Shown: piece after piece, positions 9,345 through 29,343 of the stretch
Numbering within the stretch: position 1 is the first letter of the stretch
Layout: the number at the start of each line of letters is the position of its first letter
Virus record (IMG/VR): IMGVR_UViG_2921665137_000001
Span: 1-64,000 of that record
DNA: 64,000 nucleotides
Strand: one strand, 5' to 3'
DNA from: a virus
Notes under the pieces: model-generated
What the model saw: only the letters and a program-made list of their open reading frames with translations
Told to the model about the DNA's origin: nothing
The model's database searches: none
Translations under genes and position numbers: made by a program

Positions 9345-9767
9345 TCAGTCGGTGTAAGCGATGTACTTGAACTTGCCGCCGCCGAAGTAATCGAACCGGC
9401 CGCCAAAGGTGCCGCGTACTTTTTCCTCGACCTCTGCGCGCGTCATGTCAGGCGGGTAGACGCCTTCCTTAATCATCGAAGCGTTAGAGTGCGGCTTGCT
9501 GTGCCAATCGAGCTTGGTAGGATCAAGCGGGCGCGGACGCCATGCTTCATACACAAACGACTTCGTGTTCGTCGTCACCACATAGTCGTTAATGATTTCC
9601 TCTCTCGCTTCCCAGTCGCACTCCGGGCAATGGAGATACGTGCTTATGCATGCGCTGCATGGCGGAGAAATGTGGCAAGAGCAGTTGTCAGGCTTTGTGA
9701 ACTCGATTCGACCATCGCAGCCTTCTCGCCCGCACACCTCGCCTTCTTCATGGCCGATAGCGCTCAT
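9345..9767 (-). CDS. Cys-rich Zn-binding hypothetical protein
   Basis: Several CxxC / CPEC motifs. Start chosen at MSAIGHEEG. Confidence 0.5.
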   Translation of the reverse strand: MSAIGHEEGEVCGREGCDGRIEFTKPDNCSCHISPPCSACISTYLHCPECDWEAREEIINDYVVTTNTKSFVYEAWRPRPLDPTKLDWHSKPHSNASMIKEGVYPPDMTRAEVEEKVRGTFGGRFDYFGGGKFKYIAYTD

Positions 9768-9967
9768 CGCAACACCCCAAAAATACGATCGAAAAGTGTG
9801 TCGACTTCGCGCAGGCATTTATCGTCGCGGAATGCCTCGAAGTCTTCCCATTCGGCTGCGCGCTCGTATTCCGTTAGCGGCTCGACCGGATCAAACGATT
9901 CTTCCTGCCTCTTGCGGTCCAGGCGCTCGAATTCGAGCCAAGCTCGCTGGTTTGCGTGCTGTCCCAT
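9764..9967 (-). CDS. Hypothetical protein (67 aa)
   Basis: ATG 9967 has a GGAG ribosome-binding site. The longer ORF begins with GTG. Acidic composition. Confidence 0.4.
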   Translation of the reverse strand: MGQHANQRAWLEFERLDRKRQEESFDPVEPLTEYERAAEWEDFEAFRDDKCLREVDTLFDRIFGVLR

Positions 9968-10135
9968 GATTTGCACTCCGTAATGTTTTTGAAGGTTTCT
10001 CGCCTTCAGCGGATGACGCTGCGACACAGGCTATCGGTGTAGTCGTCGCAAGGCTAGCCAGGCACTCACGGGCTCCGGTTAAGGCGCAGTGCCATCCGTT
10101 GAAGGCCCCGGTTTAAGCGCCGGGTCCGCTCTAAA

Positions 10136-10276
10136 TCACTGCCACCACTCGTGGCCTTCGCCCTGGCAATGGTCACACTCCATCAGGCCATCGCTGAAGT
10201 CATCGCGACCAGATCCGCCGCACTTCGGACAGAAGCCACCATTTGCGGGCTCGTCGAGGTCTTCGTCATCGTCCAT
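10136..10276 (-). CDS. Small Zn-ribbon protein (46 aa)
   Basis: CPKCGGSG...CDHCQGEGH motifs. It lies immediately after the stop of the 10278..10655 gene. Confidence 0.4.
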   Translation of the reverse strand: MDDDEDLDEPANGGFCPKCGGSGRDDFSDGLMECDHCQGEGHEWWQ

Positions 10277-10277
10277 G

Positions 10278-11329: not shown

Positions 11330-11652
11330 GGCAAAACCCTCCCAGTAGCCGCCTGCACAAACTCACGCATGATTTCCAGTGCAAGCGATTCATTACCGAC
11401 ATACAGAGCGTCAAAGATGCGAGGAATGGTGGTTTCGTCAGCGCCGACCGGCTTCAATCCGCGACGAACGATTTCCTGCTCAAGCTCGCACGTCTCGAAA
11501 TCCATCAGGTCAACGTCTACGTGGACGTATGGCATCGCTCCCTCACTGCAAACAAACCTGGCTGTAATCGACACTGCGGACCAGAATCGAGTTGACGTAC
11601 TGGTCGTAGTGATTGGCAAAACGCAGGATGTAATTGCTGATCTTCGGGGCAT
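11326..11652 (-). CDS. Hypothetical protein (108 aa)
   Basis: An AGGAGA ribosome-binding site lies upstream of ATG 11652. Confidence 0.55.
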   Translation of the reverse strand: MPRRSAITSCVLPITTTSTSTRFWSAVSITARFVCSEGAMPYVHVDVDLMDFETCELEQEIVRRGLKPVGADETTIPRIFDALYVGNESLALEIMREFVQAATGRVLP

Positions 11653-12443
11653 AGGCCCGGAAGCCGTAATCGCTGTAGAACATGATGGTCTCCTGAAGGA
11701 GTACTAATCGCGCCACATAAAGCAGCGCTCCGGGTAATCTTTGGTGCAGTGTTTACGGAGGCGCGCTGTGCTATGCAGGGAGCTATCTACTGGTGTTTCC
11801 TGCCGTAAGAACCGGGGCTAATATCCACCGGGCCAGCAGGCCTTACGCCGATTTACTATGCGGGGAACACAACACGCTTTCGTGAAAACTGCCTCTTCGG
11901 ACCCGTCCGGCTACACCCAACTTGGCTGGCTCCGGCTCAGGTCCGTGTTACCCCGCAACGATCACCCGAATCCTGTTCCGGCGACTGTTGCGGTTGCCCC
12001 GATTACTACGCGATCGGCGGCCCCTCCTTGGTTCGCGCCCCTTGCGGGGAATGGTTGCGTTGTTCTGCTTTCTCGCGTCGACCATGACGACAACGGCTCG
12101 ACAGATATCTCCGGTGTTCTGGCCTTACGTGTCGTGCGCTATAACAGTGATAAAGAACCTCTTGCCCTACCAGGCGACGCCATGCGCCTGTGTTCCTCTA
12201 CTGCGGCACTTCTACTGCTCTGGTGGTATGGGGCCAGTGCTGATCTCTGGCTTGCTGGATGGCACTAAACCAGCCCTTGTACGCGTCTACTATCCGTATC
12301 TACCATCTATGTCCGCTCGGTCTGCAACTCCATACATGCACAGCAGCCGGATTCATCTCGGTGCGCATCAGCCTGCGCATTCCCATCCCATCAGAACAGT
12401 TACAGCCCGTAGCCGCGATACTCTGCGGCGTTGGTTTCGACCT

Positions 12444-12866
12444 TTATGCTTCTTCTTTCGCGCAGAACTCGCCAAAGTCCTTCACATTGCCCTCAAACAG
12501 CGTTCCGCTATAAGAGTCCACCTTGACGGCGATACCCGGCTCCGCGTCGCTGCCGAATGCCTTATTGGTGACGATCACGTGATACGTGTAGTCCTGACCA
12601 ACATCCGCCGCTTCGACCGGATAGATGTAAATGCCGCCGATACCATCCTTGAAGTGGGCGATCATCTGCGCAGAGAGGCAACCCGCGCCGTTAGCTGCTT
12701 CGCCGGCCTTCTCGCCCGAAATGCCGTTGATGATCTTCATGTCCTTCATGAACTCGAACAGCGCGGCACCGTGGCCGGACGGGTAGCCGTCGAACTGGCG
12801 ATACATGTTGACGAGCTTTTCGCCGTCAGAAGTTGTTACGAACGTCAAAGACCGCGTGCCCATCAT
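12444..12866 (-). CDS. Hypothetical protein (140 aa)
   Basis: An AAGGAG ribosome-binding site lies 6 nt upstream of ATGATG at 12866. Gly-rich globular composition. Confidence 0.6.
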   Translation of the reverse strand: MMGTRSLTFVTTSDGEKLVNMYRQFDGYPSGHGAALFEFMKDMKIINGISGEKAGEAANGAGCLSAQMIAHFKDGIGGIYIYPVEAADVGQDYTYHVIVTNKAFGSDAEPGIAVKVDSYSGTLFEGNVKDFGEFCAKEEA

Positions 12867-13438: not shown

Positions 13439-13545
13439 GTCCGTCTCCTAGGTTCGGTGGGTGGTGCGTGTTCGGTGCTGCGACTCAGTAATTCCAGTGT
13501 ATGTCGCTAAACATTTTTCGTCAAGTAACCTAAACCTAAAAGACG

Positions 13546-13567
13546 AAAAAAATCCCGCCGAAGCGGG
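13546..13567 (-). terminator. Rho-independent terminator for the leftward transcript
   Basis: On the minus strand, CCCGCTTCGGCGGG hairpin followed by ATTTTTTT. Confidence 0.6.
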
Positions 13568-13582
13568 AGCGGTTGTGGATTT

Positions 13583-13774
13583 TTAGAACTCGTCGGCCAC
13601 CTCCGCAGCAAGATAGATGAACTCCGCGAGCCGTCGCACCTTCATCCGGCATTGCCGGCATTGCTCGGACTCCACGGGAACAACGTTCTGTTTTGCGGGG
13701 ATGATTTTACGTCTTGCTTCGCGAACAACTTCTAACGGCACGATCAGTGCGCTAGCGTTATTTTCCTCGCCCAT
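13583..13774 (-). CDS. Small protein (63 aa), first gene of the leftward operon
   Basis: ATG 13774 with an AGGGG ribosome-binding site. The longer ORF begins with TTG. Contains CRQCRMK. Confidence 0.4.
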   Translation of the reverse strand: MGEENNASALIVPLEVVREARRKIIPAKQNVVPVESEQCRQCRMKVRRLAEFIYLAAEVADEF

Positions 13775-13920
13775 GAGAACCCCTCGAATTATGGACAAGC
13801 ATTGAACTTTGGCCGCCAACTTACAGTTGGTCAGACATTATTCAGCAGCGCGCAAACGTTAAACTATAGGGTAAACCCTTGGTAAGGGTATTCTTACTTA
13901 GAATTTAACGTCATAAAGAG

Positions 13921-14454
13921 TTATGAAGAATGCTCTTTTTTGATGGGTAATCTTGTCTTGGGCCCGCGCAGAATGTGGGATATCTGACCGATGACGTGCT
14001 CACGTTCCTCGCCACCCGCCTTGTCGATCTTGCTCAAAGACTCCACGATAGCGCGCATTTCGGACGTTAAATAGTCAAGACGCGCCATTTTTTGCGCTTC
14101 TTTGAGCCGGTGGACTAGCGCTGTTATCGCCTGTGCGAGTTCAGCCCATTGCGGGCCCATGCTTTCGACATCTTCGAGTTCGGCAAGAAGCCGGTTCAGG
14201 TCGGCGCTGCGCGGCTGGGCGACAAAAGTACTGTCCGGTCCCTTCTCCGGCGACTCTCCCCGCATCACCCAGCCAGGATTGTAGCCGTGGACGCGCGCGA
14301 TATTCCGTGCCGCGTCCAAGCTGATTGAAGCCGTAGTTCCCTTGAGCCATTGGCTTACAAGGCCCTTGCTCACCCCCGCATCGGCCGCCAGCTCGATCTG
14401 CTTGCGCTTCGTGTCCCGGATGATTTTCCGGATGCGCTCTGATAGTTCTTTCAT
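13921..14454 (-). CDS. CI-like phage repressor (XRE-family HTH) without an S24 peptidase domain
   Basis: N-terminal HTH (KQIELAADAGVSKGLVSQWLKG). The C-terminus is unrelated to LexA/S24. It is divergent from the cro-like gene. The transcript is probably leaderless, since TAGATT lies 5 nt upstream of the ATG. Confidence 0.8.
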   Translation of the reverse strand: MKELSERIRKIIRDTKRKQIELAADAGVSKGLVSQWLKGTTASISLDAARNIARVHGYNPGWVMRGESPEKGPDSTFVAQPRSADLNRLLAELEDVESMGPQWAELAQAITALVHRLKEAQKMARLDYLTSEMRAIVESLSKIDKAGGEEREHVIGQISHILRGPKTRLPIKKEHSS

Positions 14455-28937: not shown

Positions 28938-29010
28938 CGGGTGGTAGCTCAGGGAGCAGGCCGGATTCCAAATCCGAGCCGGGTGACGTTCGATTCGTCC
29001 GCTGCCCGCC
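28938..29010 (+). tRNA. tRNA-like element, Trp(CCA)-like anticodon loop and a degenerate D-arm. It may be a phage tRNA, a tRNA pseudogene or an att/pac-associated remnant.
   Basis: Acceptor GGGTGGT pairs with GCTGCCC (with G·U pairs). D-stem GCTC/GAGC has only a 3-nt loop. Anticodon stem-loop is CGGA-TTCCAAA-TCCG. T-arm is GACG-TTCGATT-CGTC with G53:C61, then discriminator G and an encoded CCA. A second perfect T-arm-like hairpin TCAGG-TTCGAAG-CCTGG lies at 29041-29057. Confidence 0.3.
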
Positions 29011-29343
29011 AGAGGAAAGCTCCGGTACGCAGGCCGGCGAGTCAGGTTCGAAGCCTGGCGTCTTCACGCATGACGATTGAGATAGCCGTATGGGGCATTC
29101 CGGCCGGATGCCAGTACTTGCCGGCGTCAGTCGTCAGTCGTGAAGGTGAAGCACCACCGGTAGCGCGCTCCGATCGGAGGCCATAGCGCCATGCGTACCG
29201 GTCGCATTAGCTCTCTCCCCAATCTCCTCGCGCCGACCTCATCGGCGTTTGCCCAGTGGGTTGGGCTATTTTATTTGCATGTCTGAGTGAAAAGTGGCGG
29301 TCGCTCGCTCTGTCGGAAGTGGTAATTACTCAAAGGCGTAGAT

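What the first reader, a model, noticed from the sequence alone, without database searches (positions are those of the whole stretch)
11653..12443. ORF-free segment of about 790 nt inside the leftward operon, a candidate structured non-coding RNA
Between two co-oriented minus-strand genes (both with good ribosome-binding sites) there is no ORF of 60 aa or more on the transcribed strand. The only ORFs, on the + strand, are long low-complexity Arg/Leu-rich artefacts. This is unusual in a 62% GC genome. The segment has slightly lower GC, many local hairpins (for example CCCCTTGCGGGG) and short direct-repeat tracts (CTACTGC…CTACTGCTCTGGTGG…TCTGGCTTGCTGG; CTACTATCCGTATCTACCATCTATG). Phages carry large ornate RNAs of unknown function (GOLLD/ROOL-class), retron-like msr/msd RNAs and self-splicing introns. 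This could be such an element or a decayed gene.
Basis: seen in the sequence. Interest (0 to 1): 0.65.

Follow-up and report, generated by a model that had tools for sequence, protein, structure and literature searches.

The report
Modular structured RNA in prophage operon
The gene-free 760 bases inside this Paraburkholderia prophage's early-left operon encode a conserved RNA built from several folded modules; it matches no catalogued RNA family and carries a likely host Nus-factor (boxA) site, which makes it a promising new phage RNA.

Summary
Window 11684-12443 (minus strand) has no credible ORF, and it is by far the largest gap between called genes nearby.

It is not a decayed gene. It is a conserved, multi-domain structured RNA, co-transcribed with the early-left (pL-like) operon of a Paraburkholderia elongata prophage.

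Relatives occur in about 25 prophage or soil-virus contigs. Three parts show strong compensatory base-pair changes:
- a pseudoknotted domain "D1" (12399-12215)
- a 150-nt rod domain (11893-11744)

All members carry a boxA-like motif. It matches GYTCTTTAANA perfectly in six relatives and 10/11 in the window (12158-12148).

In three relatives a canonical type II hammerhead sits exactly at the 5' boundary; the window keeps only its 5' half. One relative nests a tRNA-like unit. Module order and copy number vary between phages.

Rfam 15 reports nothing for the window or for these modules in relatives: no GOLLD, ROOL, intron or hammerhead model; its one gathering-level hit is the tRNA model on that nested unit.

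Best reading: a modular non-coding RNA that recruits host Nus factors through boxA. RNA polymerase could then cross this long untranslated stretch and reach the downstream genes. What the other domains bind is unknown.

The structure is well supported. The function is inferred.

The parts
12433..12443 (-). Relic of the 5' half of a type II hammerhead (AGGUCGAAACC), directly after the stop codon of the 139-aa gene.
   Evidence: It aligns with the intact hammerheads of L019, L023/L024 and L027, which share UAAAGGUCGAAACC. A descriptor scan finds no complete hammerhead in the window, because no CUGANGA follows.
12412..12429 (-). Hairpin GCCGC-AGAGUAUC-GCGGC, equivalent to hammerhead stem III of L027.
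   Evidence: The same hairpin is present in L014 and L068.
12215..12399 (-). Domain D1. It is closed by an 18-bp long-range helix P1 (12399-12382 with 12232-12215). It contains hairpins H1 (12378-12363) and H2 (12251-12233) and a variable interior.
   Evidence: P1 plus H2: 14 of 23 pairs show compensatory changes in 13 sequences, against 1-4 in slid controls (earlier 6-sequence set). The window MFE contains 15 of 18 P1 pairs and all of H1 and H2. The module recurs in at least 10 further viral contigs.
12368..12372 (-). H1 loop GCUGA, the 5' side of the D1 loop-loop pseudoknot.
   Evidence: It pairs with UCAGC at 12243-12239. Four covarying versions occur: GCUGA/UCAGC, GGUGA/UCACC, ACUGA/UCAGU and ACCGA/UCGGU. 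In total 69 of 70 cells are paired, against 11-29% when slid.
12239..12243 (-). H2 loop UCAGC, the 3' side of the D1 pseudoknot.
12198..12218 (-). Two GCAGUAG repeats at the junction of D1 and D2.
   Evidence: GCAGUAG(A/G) recurs at this junction in most relatives.
12171..12190 (-). D2 hairpin CAGGCG-CAUGGCGU-CGCCUG.
   Evidence: The stem covaries among relatives (CAGGCG/CGCCUG, CGGC/GCCG, CCACGG/CCGUGG) and the loop keeps GCAUGGCG. This was read directly from the sequences.
12148..12158 (-). boxA-like motif GUUCUUUAUCA, matching 10 of 11 positions of GYTCTTTAANA.
   Evidence: The homologous position matches the consensus perfectly in L018, L022, L027, L029, L045 and L085, and with one mismatch in nine others. 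In the window alone the match is not significant.
12077..12091 (-). Hairpin GUCG-UCAUGGU-CGAC with a conserved CAUGG loop.
   Evidence: The stem covaries (GUGG/CCAC in L034, GCGC/GCGC in L020, GGCUC/GAGCC in L018). This was read directly; coordinates.
12038..12049 (-).
   Evidence: It covaries as CCUC/GAGG and CCAC/GUGG in relatives.
11999..12017 (-). Hairpin CCGAU-CGCGUAGUA-AUCGG.
   Evidence: The stem covaries with GUUCGCU/AGCGAAC and the loop CG.GUAG.A is conserved.
11953..11993 (-). Long hairpin CCGCAAC...GUUGCGG, capped by a CAGGA loop (11981-11966).
   Evidence: Compensatory changes in 5 sequences.
11899..11944 (-). Module GGACC-UGAGCCGG-AG-CCAGC...UUGGG-UGUAG-CCGG...GGUCC. It has two stems around a conserved AG / (R)AGUAG internal loop.
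   Evidence: 82% identical to L014. Both stems covary in L014, L022, L027, L029 and L052. This was read directly.
11744..11893 (-). 3' rod domain: a 150-nt irregular hairpin. Its 64-nt centre (11787-11850) is identical in 12 close relatives.
   Evidence: 12 of 45 pairs are compensatory, against 0-3 when slid, and 98.5% of cells are paired. With three divergent members, 20 of 45 pairs are compensatory. Covariance model R1 finds one copy per locus at 150-180 bits. Many G-U pairs fix the strand.
12444..12863 (-). Upstream gene: 139-aa protein of unknown function.
   Evidence: 100% identical to a Paraburkholderia elongata hypothetical protein, with 1929 homologues.
11543..11683 (-). Downstream gene: 46 aa, MFYSDYG..., with an AGGAG ribosome-binding site.
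   Evidence: A homologue follows the RNA element in L106.
13496..13568 (-). Intrinsic terminator (13568-13553) followed by a sigma-70-like promoter (13524-13496). This is the probable pL that drives the operon.
   Evidence: A cI-like repressor lies upstream (13921-14454).

Best explanation
The segment is the template for a conserved non-coding RNA of about 700 nt. It is transcribed leftwards as part of the prophage's early-left (pL-type) operon and is built from a chain of independently folding modules. In the window the order is: a hammerhead relic with its hairpin; the pseudoknotted domain D1; a hairpin followed by a boxA-like motif; four further hairpin modules; and a 150-nt rod domain.

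Shown: the modules are conserved in related prophages, and their helices keep pairing through compensatory changes. The RNA strand is the operon strand. No known RNA or protein family matches.

Inferred mechanism: as the RNA emerges, the boxA motif is bound by host NusB-NusE (S10). This would seed a Nus-factor complex on RNA polymerase, as happens on rRNA leaders, CRISPR-array leaders and lambda nut sites. The modified polymerase would resist Rho, which would otherwise terminate on such a long untranslated stretch. It could therefore finish the structured RNA and go on to the downstream early genes.

The other modules (D1, the rod and the rest) bind unknown partners. They may strengthen the polymerase-bound complex in cis, or act as stable RNAs after processing. 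In three relatives a hammerhead ribozyme would cut the RNA free of the upstream mRNA exactly at the stop codon. The window has lost that ribozyme.
For: Homologues and conservation:
- Conserved islands lie in the same order in L014, which shares synteny and was found through the flanking protein. One 107-nt island is 92% identical, while the neighbouring coding sequence is only 74.6% identical.
- Further members were found with DNA patterns.

Covariation:
- Rod domain: 12 of 45 pairs, against 0-3 in slid controls; 20 of 45 when divergent members are added.
- D1 (P1 and H2): 14 of 23 pairs, against 1-4.
- D1 pseudoknot: 3 of 5 pairs covary.
- Middle helices: 11 of 31 pairs.

Strand: G-U pairs are numerous on the minus strand, and the hammerhead and tRNA-like unit of relatives lie on that strand.

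boxA:
- Six relatives match GYTCTTTAANA perfectly at the homologous site, and nine members including the window have one mismatch. The consensus is from PMC5725501.
- The motif lies in the 5' third of every element, ahead of 350-750 nt of untranslated structured RNA.
- It is predicted to be more unpaired than its surroundings (0.57 against 0.40).
- BoxA-dependent protection of long untranslated RNAs from Rho is established for rRNA and CRISPR arrays (PMC7665894).

Position: the element lies downstream of a pL-like promoter next to a cI-like repressor. In L052, L074 and L068 it follows the first tiny ORF after operator-like repeats.

No promoter or terminator is predicted inside or beside the element, and linkers between modules are only 0-10 nt.
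Against: - No expression data are available.
- The window's own boxA has a mismatch at a conserved A. Taken alone it is no better than chance. In the window MFE its first 7 nt are paired.
- No second boxA or D1 lies in the rightward operon, unlike lambda nutL/nutR or HK022 putL/putR.
- The boxA consensus used comes from gamma-proteobacteria. The host's own rrn boxA could not be fetched.
- A simple anti-Rho signal does not explain why 500-700 nt of elaborate conserved structure is there at all.
- The family is small and narrow (Paraburkholderia-type prophages).
- Most rod-domain members were found with exact patterns taken from the rod centre, so its 64-nt 'invariance' is partly an artefact of ascertainment. 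Divergent rods in L085, L052 and L116 show this.
- The D1 alignments were hand-trimmed, with the variable interior replaced by AAAAAA.
Confidence: 0.45

Rival explanations
1. A trans-acting large phage RNA of the GOLLD/ROOL kind. The RNA would be released from the early transcript, by a hammerhead in some phages and by host RNases in others. It would accumulate and act by itself or in multimers as a scaffold, cage or decoy for a host macromolecule. On this view boxA is only an accessory that lets the RNA be made.
For: - It is about 700 nt, multi-domain and prophage-encoded, with a better-conserved 3' domain and a variable 5' part.
- A tRNA-like unit is nested on a helix in L019, and T-arm-like hairpins occur in L103 and L106. 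GOLLD is described the same way: a conserved 3' region, a variable 5' region and tRNAs in the linker (PMC12286853).
- A hammerhead at the exact 5' boundary in three relatives would release a 5'-OH RNA.
- Palindromic CAUG-containing loops could form kissing contacts (inference).
Against: - No GOLLD or ROOL match, even at E<=10.
- Modules change order and copy number. L085 has the rod followed by two D1 copies. L051 has two D1 copies and no rod. L106 has no rod. A lone D1 occurs in L014 and L116. That fits an array of independent units better than one fixed three-dimensional architecture.
- There is no evidence on abundance or processing.
Confidence: 0.3
2. The whole element is the phage's nutL-equivalent: a protein-independent or N-like-dependent processive antitermination RNA. 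All modules would assemble on RNA polymerase in cis, as with lambda nut, HK022 put or the rrn boxB-boxA-boxC leader, so that the polymerase reads through terminators of the early-left operon.
For: - A boxA is present at the position expected for nutL, just downstream of pL.
- Tandem D1 copies could raise local affinity.
- Hammerhead cleavage upstream would not break the tether to the polymerase (inference).
Against: - No counterpart in the rightward operon.
- No lambda-type boxB hairpin was seen near boxA by eye, and no arginine-rich N-like protein among the neighbouring ORF translations; neither was searched for systematically.
- Known antitermination RNAs are 40-120 nt, not 700 nt.
- In the window the element lies about 1.3 kb and two genes downstream of the promoter.
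Confidence: 0.15
3. mRNA punctuation. The long helices would be RNase III sites, and the hammerhead of relatives a cleavage site. They would split the polycistronic early transcript and set the stability of the flanking mRNAs. The RNA would have no function of its own.
For: - Each module is closed by a helix of 18 bp or more with a conserved internal mismatch.
- Prophage hammerheads have been proposed to cut long transcripts into gene-length mRNAs (PMC3088659).
Against: A covarying loop-loop pseudoknot, conserved loops and a 64-nt near-invariant centre are far more than processing sites need.
Confidence: 0.07
4. A decayed protein gene or a functionless spacer. The plus-strand ORFs might instead be real genes.
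For: The segment lacks ORFs on the sense strand. Long plus-strand ORFs exist.
Against: - No Pfam signal in any ORF.
- No similar DNA in the phage or plasmid collections.
- Homologues share no ORF.
- Parts of the segment are more conserved than the flanking coding sequence.
- Compensatory changes are extensive.
Confidence: 0.02

Closest known systems
boxA-dependent Nus-factor antitermination leaders (rRNA operon leaders, CRISPR-array leaders, suhB leader)
   Same: An 11-nt boxA motif lies near the start of a long untranslated, highly structured transcript. The expected role is to load NusB-S10 and make the polymerase Rho-resistant (PMC7665894, PMC5725501).
   Different: This one sits inside a phage protein-coding operon, not ahead of rRNA or CRISPR repeats. 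The downstream RNA is a set of unknown modules. The window's motif has one mismatch. Binding has not been tested.
Lambda nutL/nutR (boxA-boxB) and HK022 putL/putR antitermination RNAs
   Same: Location early in the leftward operon of a lambdoid-type prophage next to the immunity region. A boxA-like element is present. Action would be in cis on the polymerase.
   Different: About ten times larger. No boxB-like hairpin or N-like protein noticed (not searched systematically). No matching site in the rightward operon.
GOLLD and ROOL large ornate phage/prophage RNAs
   Same: Several hundred nucleotides and multi-domain. Prophage-encoded. Better-conserved 3' region and variable 5' region. A tRNA-like unit is nested in one member. 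Function unknown.
   Different: No match to either Rfam model. The host range differs (Paraburkholderia). Module order and number vary, whereas GOLLD and ROOL have a fixed architecture.
Type II hammerhead ribozymes in prophage intergenic regions (Perreault et al. 2011, PMC3088659)
   Same: Relatives L019, L023/L024 and L027 carry a canonical type II hammerhead between prophage genes, exactly at the element's 5' edge.
   Different: The window retains only the 5' half (GGUCGAAACC plus the stem III hairpin). Rfam's hammerhead models do not report even the intact ones.

Membership tests
GOLLD RNA | Match to the Rfam covariance model (sequence plus structure of the conserved 3' half). | tested here: not met
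   No hit at the gathering score in the window or in 12 homologous loci. No hit at E<=10 on the region or on the rod domain alone. No hit at E<=1 in L019, L024 or L027.
GOLLD RNA | Phage or prophage location, conserved 3' region with variable 5' region, and tRNAs adjacent or in the linker. | tested here: inconclusive
   Prophage location and 3'-biased conservation are met. A tRNA-like unit is nested only in L019. The only tRNA in the window is 17 kb away. These are resemblances, not proof of homology.
ROOL RNA | Match to the Rfam covariance model. | tested here: not met
Hammerhead ribozyme, type II | Core CUGANGA and GAAA, three stems with A15.1-U16.1 and 10.1-11.1 pairs, and a non-G cleavage-site nucleotide. 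| tested here: not met
   The window has only GGUC-GAA-ACC plus a stem III-like hairpin, with no CUGANGA. Relatives L019, L023/L024 and L027 meet every descriptor element and are the only hits in 656 kb scanned. Stem I covaries between them (UUAGCG/CGCUAA against AGCACG/CGUGCU).
Hammerhead ribozyme, type II | Match to the Rfam hammerhead models. | tested here: not met
   No hit, even for the intact relatives, at E<=1 or at E<=10 on 101 nt. This conflicts with the descriptor result and is unexplained.
Hammerhead ribozyme, type II | Self-cleavage. | not testable with these tools
   Needs in-vitro transcription and cleavage assays of the L019, L023 and L027 sequences.
boxA / Nus-factor antitermination site | Match to the boxA consensus GYTCTTTAANA. 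| tested here: inconclusive
   The window matches 10 of 11 (GUUCUUUAUCA, 12158-12148), which is not significant on its own (2 hits against 2.9 expected). The homologous site is a perfect match in L018, L022, L027, L029, L045 and L085.
boxA / Nus-factor antitermination site | Single-stranded, and placed near the 5' end of a transcript downstream of a promoter. | tested here: inconclusive
   Mean predicted unpaired probability is 0.57 against a background of 0.40 over 14 members, but the window MFE pairs 7 of its nucleotides. The motif lies in the 5' third of every element. A pL-like promoter lies 1.3 kb upstream.
boxA / Nus-factor antitermination site | Binding of NusB-NusE, and boxA-dependent resistance to Rho. 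| not testable with these tools
   Needs EMSA and reporter assays with bicyclomycin.
Lambda-type nut / HK022-type put | Paired sites in both the leftward and the rightward early operons. | tested here: not met
   The window holds only one D1, one rod and one boxA-like site near the immunity region.
Retron msr/msd | An adjacent reverse-transcriptase gene, and an msr/msd RNA. | tested here: not met
   No RT domain among the called genes within +/-8 kb. No Rfam hit.
Group I / group II intron | Match to the intron models, and interruption of a host gene. | tested here: not met
   No Rfam hit. The upstream gene is full length, 139 aa like its homologues. The element starts after its stop codon.
Pseudogene | Residual similarity to a protein family, or an intact ORF in homologues. 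| tested here: not met
   No Pfam hit at E<=1 for any ORF of the segment. No shared ORF in 12 homologues. A full BLASTX against nr was not possible.

The most novel reading that the evidence does not exclude
This is a previously undescribed class of large modular phage RNA. It contains at least two new structured motifs: the D1 junction domain with its loop-loop pseudoknot, and the 150-nt rod. These are strung behind an rRNA-style boxA. The RNA would either form an N-independent, RNA-based antitermination machine on host RNA polymerase, or be a Nus-assisted, co-transcriptionally folded RNA that acts in trans early in lytic growth.
Probability: 0.4. Interest if true: 0.85.

Novelty: new variant of a known kind. 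Interest (0 to 1): 0.72.

Why it matters
Bacterial and phage RNAs of several hundred nucleotides with extensive conserved structure are rare. The known ones (rRNA, RNase P, group I/II introns, tmRNA, OLE, GOLLD, ROOL) have repaid study.

This family would add new folds, notably a covariation-supported pseudoknotted domain that recurs alone and in tandem. It would also link a large phage RNA for the first time to the host Nus/boxA system, which otherwise serves rRNA, CRISPR arrays and lambda N. That link suggests how phages can afford long untranslated stretches inside operons despite Rho.

The family also offers natural variants that make function testable:
- members with or without the hammerhead;
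- members with or without the rod;
- members with one or two D1 copies;
- one member with a tRNA-like insert.

Tried and rejected
- **Rfam.** The window was searched at gathering score, the region and the rod at E<=10, and 12 homologous loci as well. Only a tRNA in L019 was found.
- **Annotated phage and plasmid collections.** No homologue of the RNA. A protein search of phages found only distant relatives of the upstream gene.
- **Protein-based scan of representative genomes** for the upstream gene. Nothing was confirmed. An exact look-up with the wrong start codon also failed.
- **CsrA/RsmA sponge idea**, suggested by ACAGGAU-type loops. GGA is not enriched: 15 observed against 13.5 +/- 2.8 in shuffles.
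- **Antisense target search.** Only three 13-mers elsewhere in the window are complementary to the element, which is about the chance level.
- **Second copies in the window**, as nutR/putR analogues. None found.
- **My own alternative fold of the rod centre** (CGUAAG/CUUACG enclosing two small hairpins, closed by UUCCCUGC/GCAGGAA). It is contradicted by L027 (UCA/UGA covariation in helix 2) and by L085 (CCUGCUG/CGGCAGG changing to CCGGUC/GACCGG).
- **K-turn reading of GGCGUAAGG/AAACACC.** It does not fit the consensus (by inspection).
- **A conserved pseudoknot between hammerhead loop I and the 3' tail.** Only L023 can form one (by inspection).
- **A 2026 bioRxiv preprint** on genome-language-model mining of non-coding elements could not be opened.
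Full report
**1. The observation**

- All three minus-strand frames of 11684-12443 are broken by many stops. The longest minus-strand ORFs are 35-45 aa.
- The same contig exists in a public assembly (Logan SRR10490466). Its gene caller also left exactly this 760-nt gap. It is the largest gap within +/-8 kb; the next is 310 nt.
- The upstream gene is a 139-aa protein (12444-12863), 100% identical to a Paraburkholderia elongata hypothetical protein.
- The window is 57.6% GC and the segment 57.9%. The statements '62% GC' and 'slightly lower GC' do not hold for this window.
- The plus-strand ORFs have no Pfam match, and the largest runs antisense into the upstream gene.
- The minus strand folds somewhat better than shuffled sequence (z = -2.35; plus strand -1.04).

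**2. Context**

- A cI-like HTH repressor (13921-14454, minus strand) faces a rightward operon with replication genes.
- Downstream of the repressor lie an intrinsic terminator (13568-13553) and a sigma-70-like promoter (13524-13496).
- Next come the 130-aa gene, the 139-aa gene, the gap, and a run of small genes and recombination-type genes.
- This is the layout of a lambdoid early-left (pL) operon. No promoter or terminator is predicted in or next to the gap.

**3. Known families**

- Rfam 15 finds nothing in the window at gathering scores. At E<=10 it gives only noise in the region.
- There is no similar DNA in the annotated phage or plasmid collections.

**4. Homologues**

- The 139-aa protein led to L014, a JGI soil contig with the same synteny and an even larger gene-free gap.
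- The window and L014 share ordered islands of similarity across the gap. The best island is 92% identical over 107 nt, while the adjacent coding sequence is only 74.6% identical.
- Exact-pattern scans with pieces of that island found more members in IMG/VR, in JGI metagenomes and in two GTDB genomes: Paraburkholderia dilworthii and a Paraburkholderia MAG.
- These members lack the 139-aa gene, so the element moves independently of its neighbours.
- A second scan, with a motif from the 5' domain, found at least ten further loci.

**5. Structure: the rod domain (11893-11744)**

- In 12 distinct sequences the RNAalifold structure has 45 pairs and 98.5% of cells are paired. Twelve pairs show compensatory changes, against 0-3 when partners are slid.
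- A covariance model built from it finds exactly one copy per locus at 150-180 bits.
- It also finds divergent versions in L085 (95 bits), L052 (37 bits) and L116 (26 bits).
- With these included, 20 of 45 pairs show compensatory changes, including the inner helices. That alignment was fitted to the model.
- The 64-nt centre is identical in the 12 close members. Most of them were retrieved with exact patterns from that centre, so this invariance is partly ascertainment.
- About 57 G-U cells against a handful of A-C cells show that the structure belongs to the minus-strand RNA.

**6. Structure: domain D1 (12399-12215)**

- An 18-bp long-range helix P1 closes a junction that holds hairpins H1 and H2 and a variable insert.
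- In 13 instances, 14 of the 23 P1/H2 pairs show compensatory changes, against 1-4 when slid (earlier 6-sequence version). For these alignments the variable interior was replaced by AAAAAA.
- The H1 and H2 loops are complementary and covary in four versions: GCUGA/UCAGC, GGUGA/UCACC, ACUGA/UCAGU and ACCGA/UCGGU. In total 69 of 70 cells are paired, against 11-29% when slid. This indicates a loop-loop pseudoknot.
- The window MFE independently contains P1, H1 and H2.

**7. Structure: the middle**

- Three helices in 12064-11945 show 11 compensatory pairs out of 31 in five sequences.
- Further hairpins (12190-12171, 12091-12077, 11944-11899) covary by direct inspection.
- Linkers between modules are 0-10 nt.

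**8. Modularity**

Module order and number differ between phages:

| Locus | Arrangement |
|---|---|
| L085 | boxA module, rod, then two tandem D1 copies |
| L051 / L046 | two D1 copies where the rod would be |
| L106 | no rod centre, but the same downstream 46-aa gene |
| L014, L116 | a lone D1 in another gap |

- Between the middle part and the rod, members carry an insert of 0-250 nt on a conserved helix (GCAGUUUUC.../...GAARCUGC).
- In L019 that insert is a tRNA-like unit. Rfam scores it 44 bits as tRNA. ARAGORN calls it a tRNA with an abnormal anticodon loop.
- The element is therefore better described as a co-transcribed chain of RNA modules than as one fixed fold.

**9. Hammerhead**

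- In L019, L023/L024 and L027 the element begins, right after the upstream stop codon, with GGUC-GAA-[stem III]-H-[stem I]-CUGAYGA-GACC.
- A strict descriptor finds only these in 656 kb (both strands counted). Stem I covaries between them.
- Rfam's hammerhead models do not report them. I could not explain this discrepancy.
- The window keeps UAAAGGUCGAAACC and the stem III-like hairpin (12446-12412) but has no CUGANGA. I read this as a relic.

**10. boxA**

- Every member has the motif G(N)UCUUUAA(M)A just 3' of the D2 hairpin.
- It matches the published boxA consensus GYTCTTTAANA (PMC5725501) perfectly in L018, L022, L027, L029, L045 and L085. L085 reads GCUCUUUAACAAU.
- It has one mismatch in the window and eight other members.
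- Of ten perfect matches in the 138 loci held, seven (six distinct loci) are at this homologous site.
- The motif lies in the 5' third of each element and is predicted to be less paired than its surroundings.
- In the window alone the 10/11 match is not significant.
- BoxA loads NusB-S10 and the Nus complex. It is known to protect long untranslated RNAs (rRNA, CRISPR arrays) from Rho (PMC7665894), and it is part of lambda nut sites.

**11. Interpretation**

- *Shown:* a conserved, strand-specific, multi-module structured RNA of about 700 nt that matches no catalogued family.
- *Inferred:* boxA recruits Nus factors so that the polymerase crosses this untranslated stretch and reaches the downstream early genes. 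The other modules either reinforce that complex in cis or act as processed stable RNAs.
- I rank the boxA-equipped modular RNA first (0.45).
- A GOLLD/ROOL-like trans-acting RNA comes second (0.30). It shares the lifestyle, but there is no model match and the modules are shuffled.
- A dedicated nutL-type antiterminator comes third (0.15). There is no rightward counterpart, and no boxB or N-like protein was noticed.
- mRNA punctuation (0.07) and a decayed gene (0.02) follow.
- These readings overlap in part.

**12. Limits**

- There are no expression data.
- The family is small and taxonomically narrow.
- Retrieval of the rod domain was biased by the exact patterns used.
- The D1 and middle-part alignments were hand-curated.
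- The boxA consensus comes from gamma-proteobacteria.
- The hammerhead and boxA functions are untested.

Noticed in passing
window 10136-10276 (minus strand): The second-largest gap between called genes (310 nt, window about 9968-10277) contains an uncalled 46-aa ORF: MDDDEDLDEPANGGFCPKCGGSGRDDFSDGLMECDHCQGEGHEWWQ. It has two CxxCxGxG (DnaJ-type zinc-finger) motifs and starts right after the stop codon of the 125-aa gene. Its C-terminal 35 residues are 88.6% identical to a translated stretch in L020.
   Followed up: partly
window 28939-29011 (+): A tRNA-Trp (CCA) gene lies inside the prophage, just upstream of the terminase region.
   Followed up: no
L014 about 9600-9790: A second, stand-alone D1 domain (P1 GCCCUGAUGGAACGG/CCGUUCCACCAGGGC, pseudoknot GGUGA/UCACC) lies in another gene-free gap 2.5 kb downstream of the main element.
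   Followed up: partly
L085 reverse strand, oriented 931-1490: A rod domain with a 65-nt apical insert is followed by two tandem D1 copies and then a ribosome-binding site and gene start. L051/L046 likewise carry two tandem D1 copies.
   Followed up: partly
L019 4422-4509 (minus strand): A tRNA-like unit is nested in the RNA element on the helix GCAGUUUUCAAC/GUUGAAAGCUGC. It has a 19-nt D-loop insert and an abnormal anticodon loop. T-arm-like hairpins (CCGGUUCGAGUCCGG) occur in the elements of L103 and L106.
   Followed up: partly
L024 7014-7063; L019 and L027 equivalents: Type II hammerheads that are canonical by descriptor are not reported by any Rfam hammerhead model, even at E<=10 on a 101-nt query. 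The reason is unknown.
   Followed up: partly
L021 oriented +644..+977 and L022 +557..+741, relative to the rod start: BLAST hits offset by 27 nt indicate a tandem 27-nt (9-aa) repeat inside a roughly 310-aa ORF downstream of the RNA element in these phages.
   Followed up: no
L052 5360-5470 and L068 5153-5265: Operator-like inverted repeats (for example UACUACCGCACCGGUAGA ... UACCCGUGCGGUAGUA) precede a tiny first ORF, which is followed directly by D1. In these phages the RNA therefore lies very close to the early-left promoter.
   Followed up: no
window 13583-13819 (minus strand): A 78-aa ORF lies between the cI-like repressor and the terminator at 13568-13553. This is the position of lambda rexAB-type lysogen-expressed genes.
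   Followed up: no
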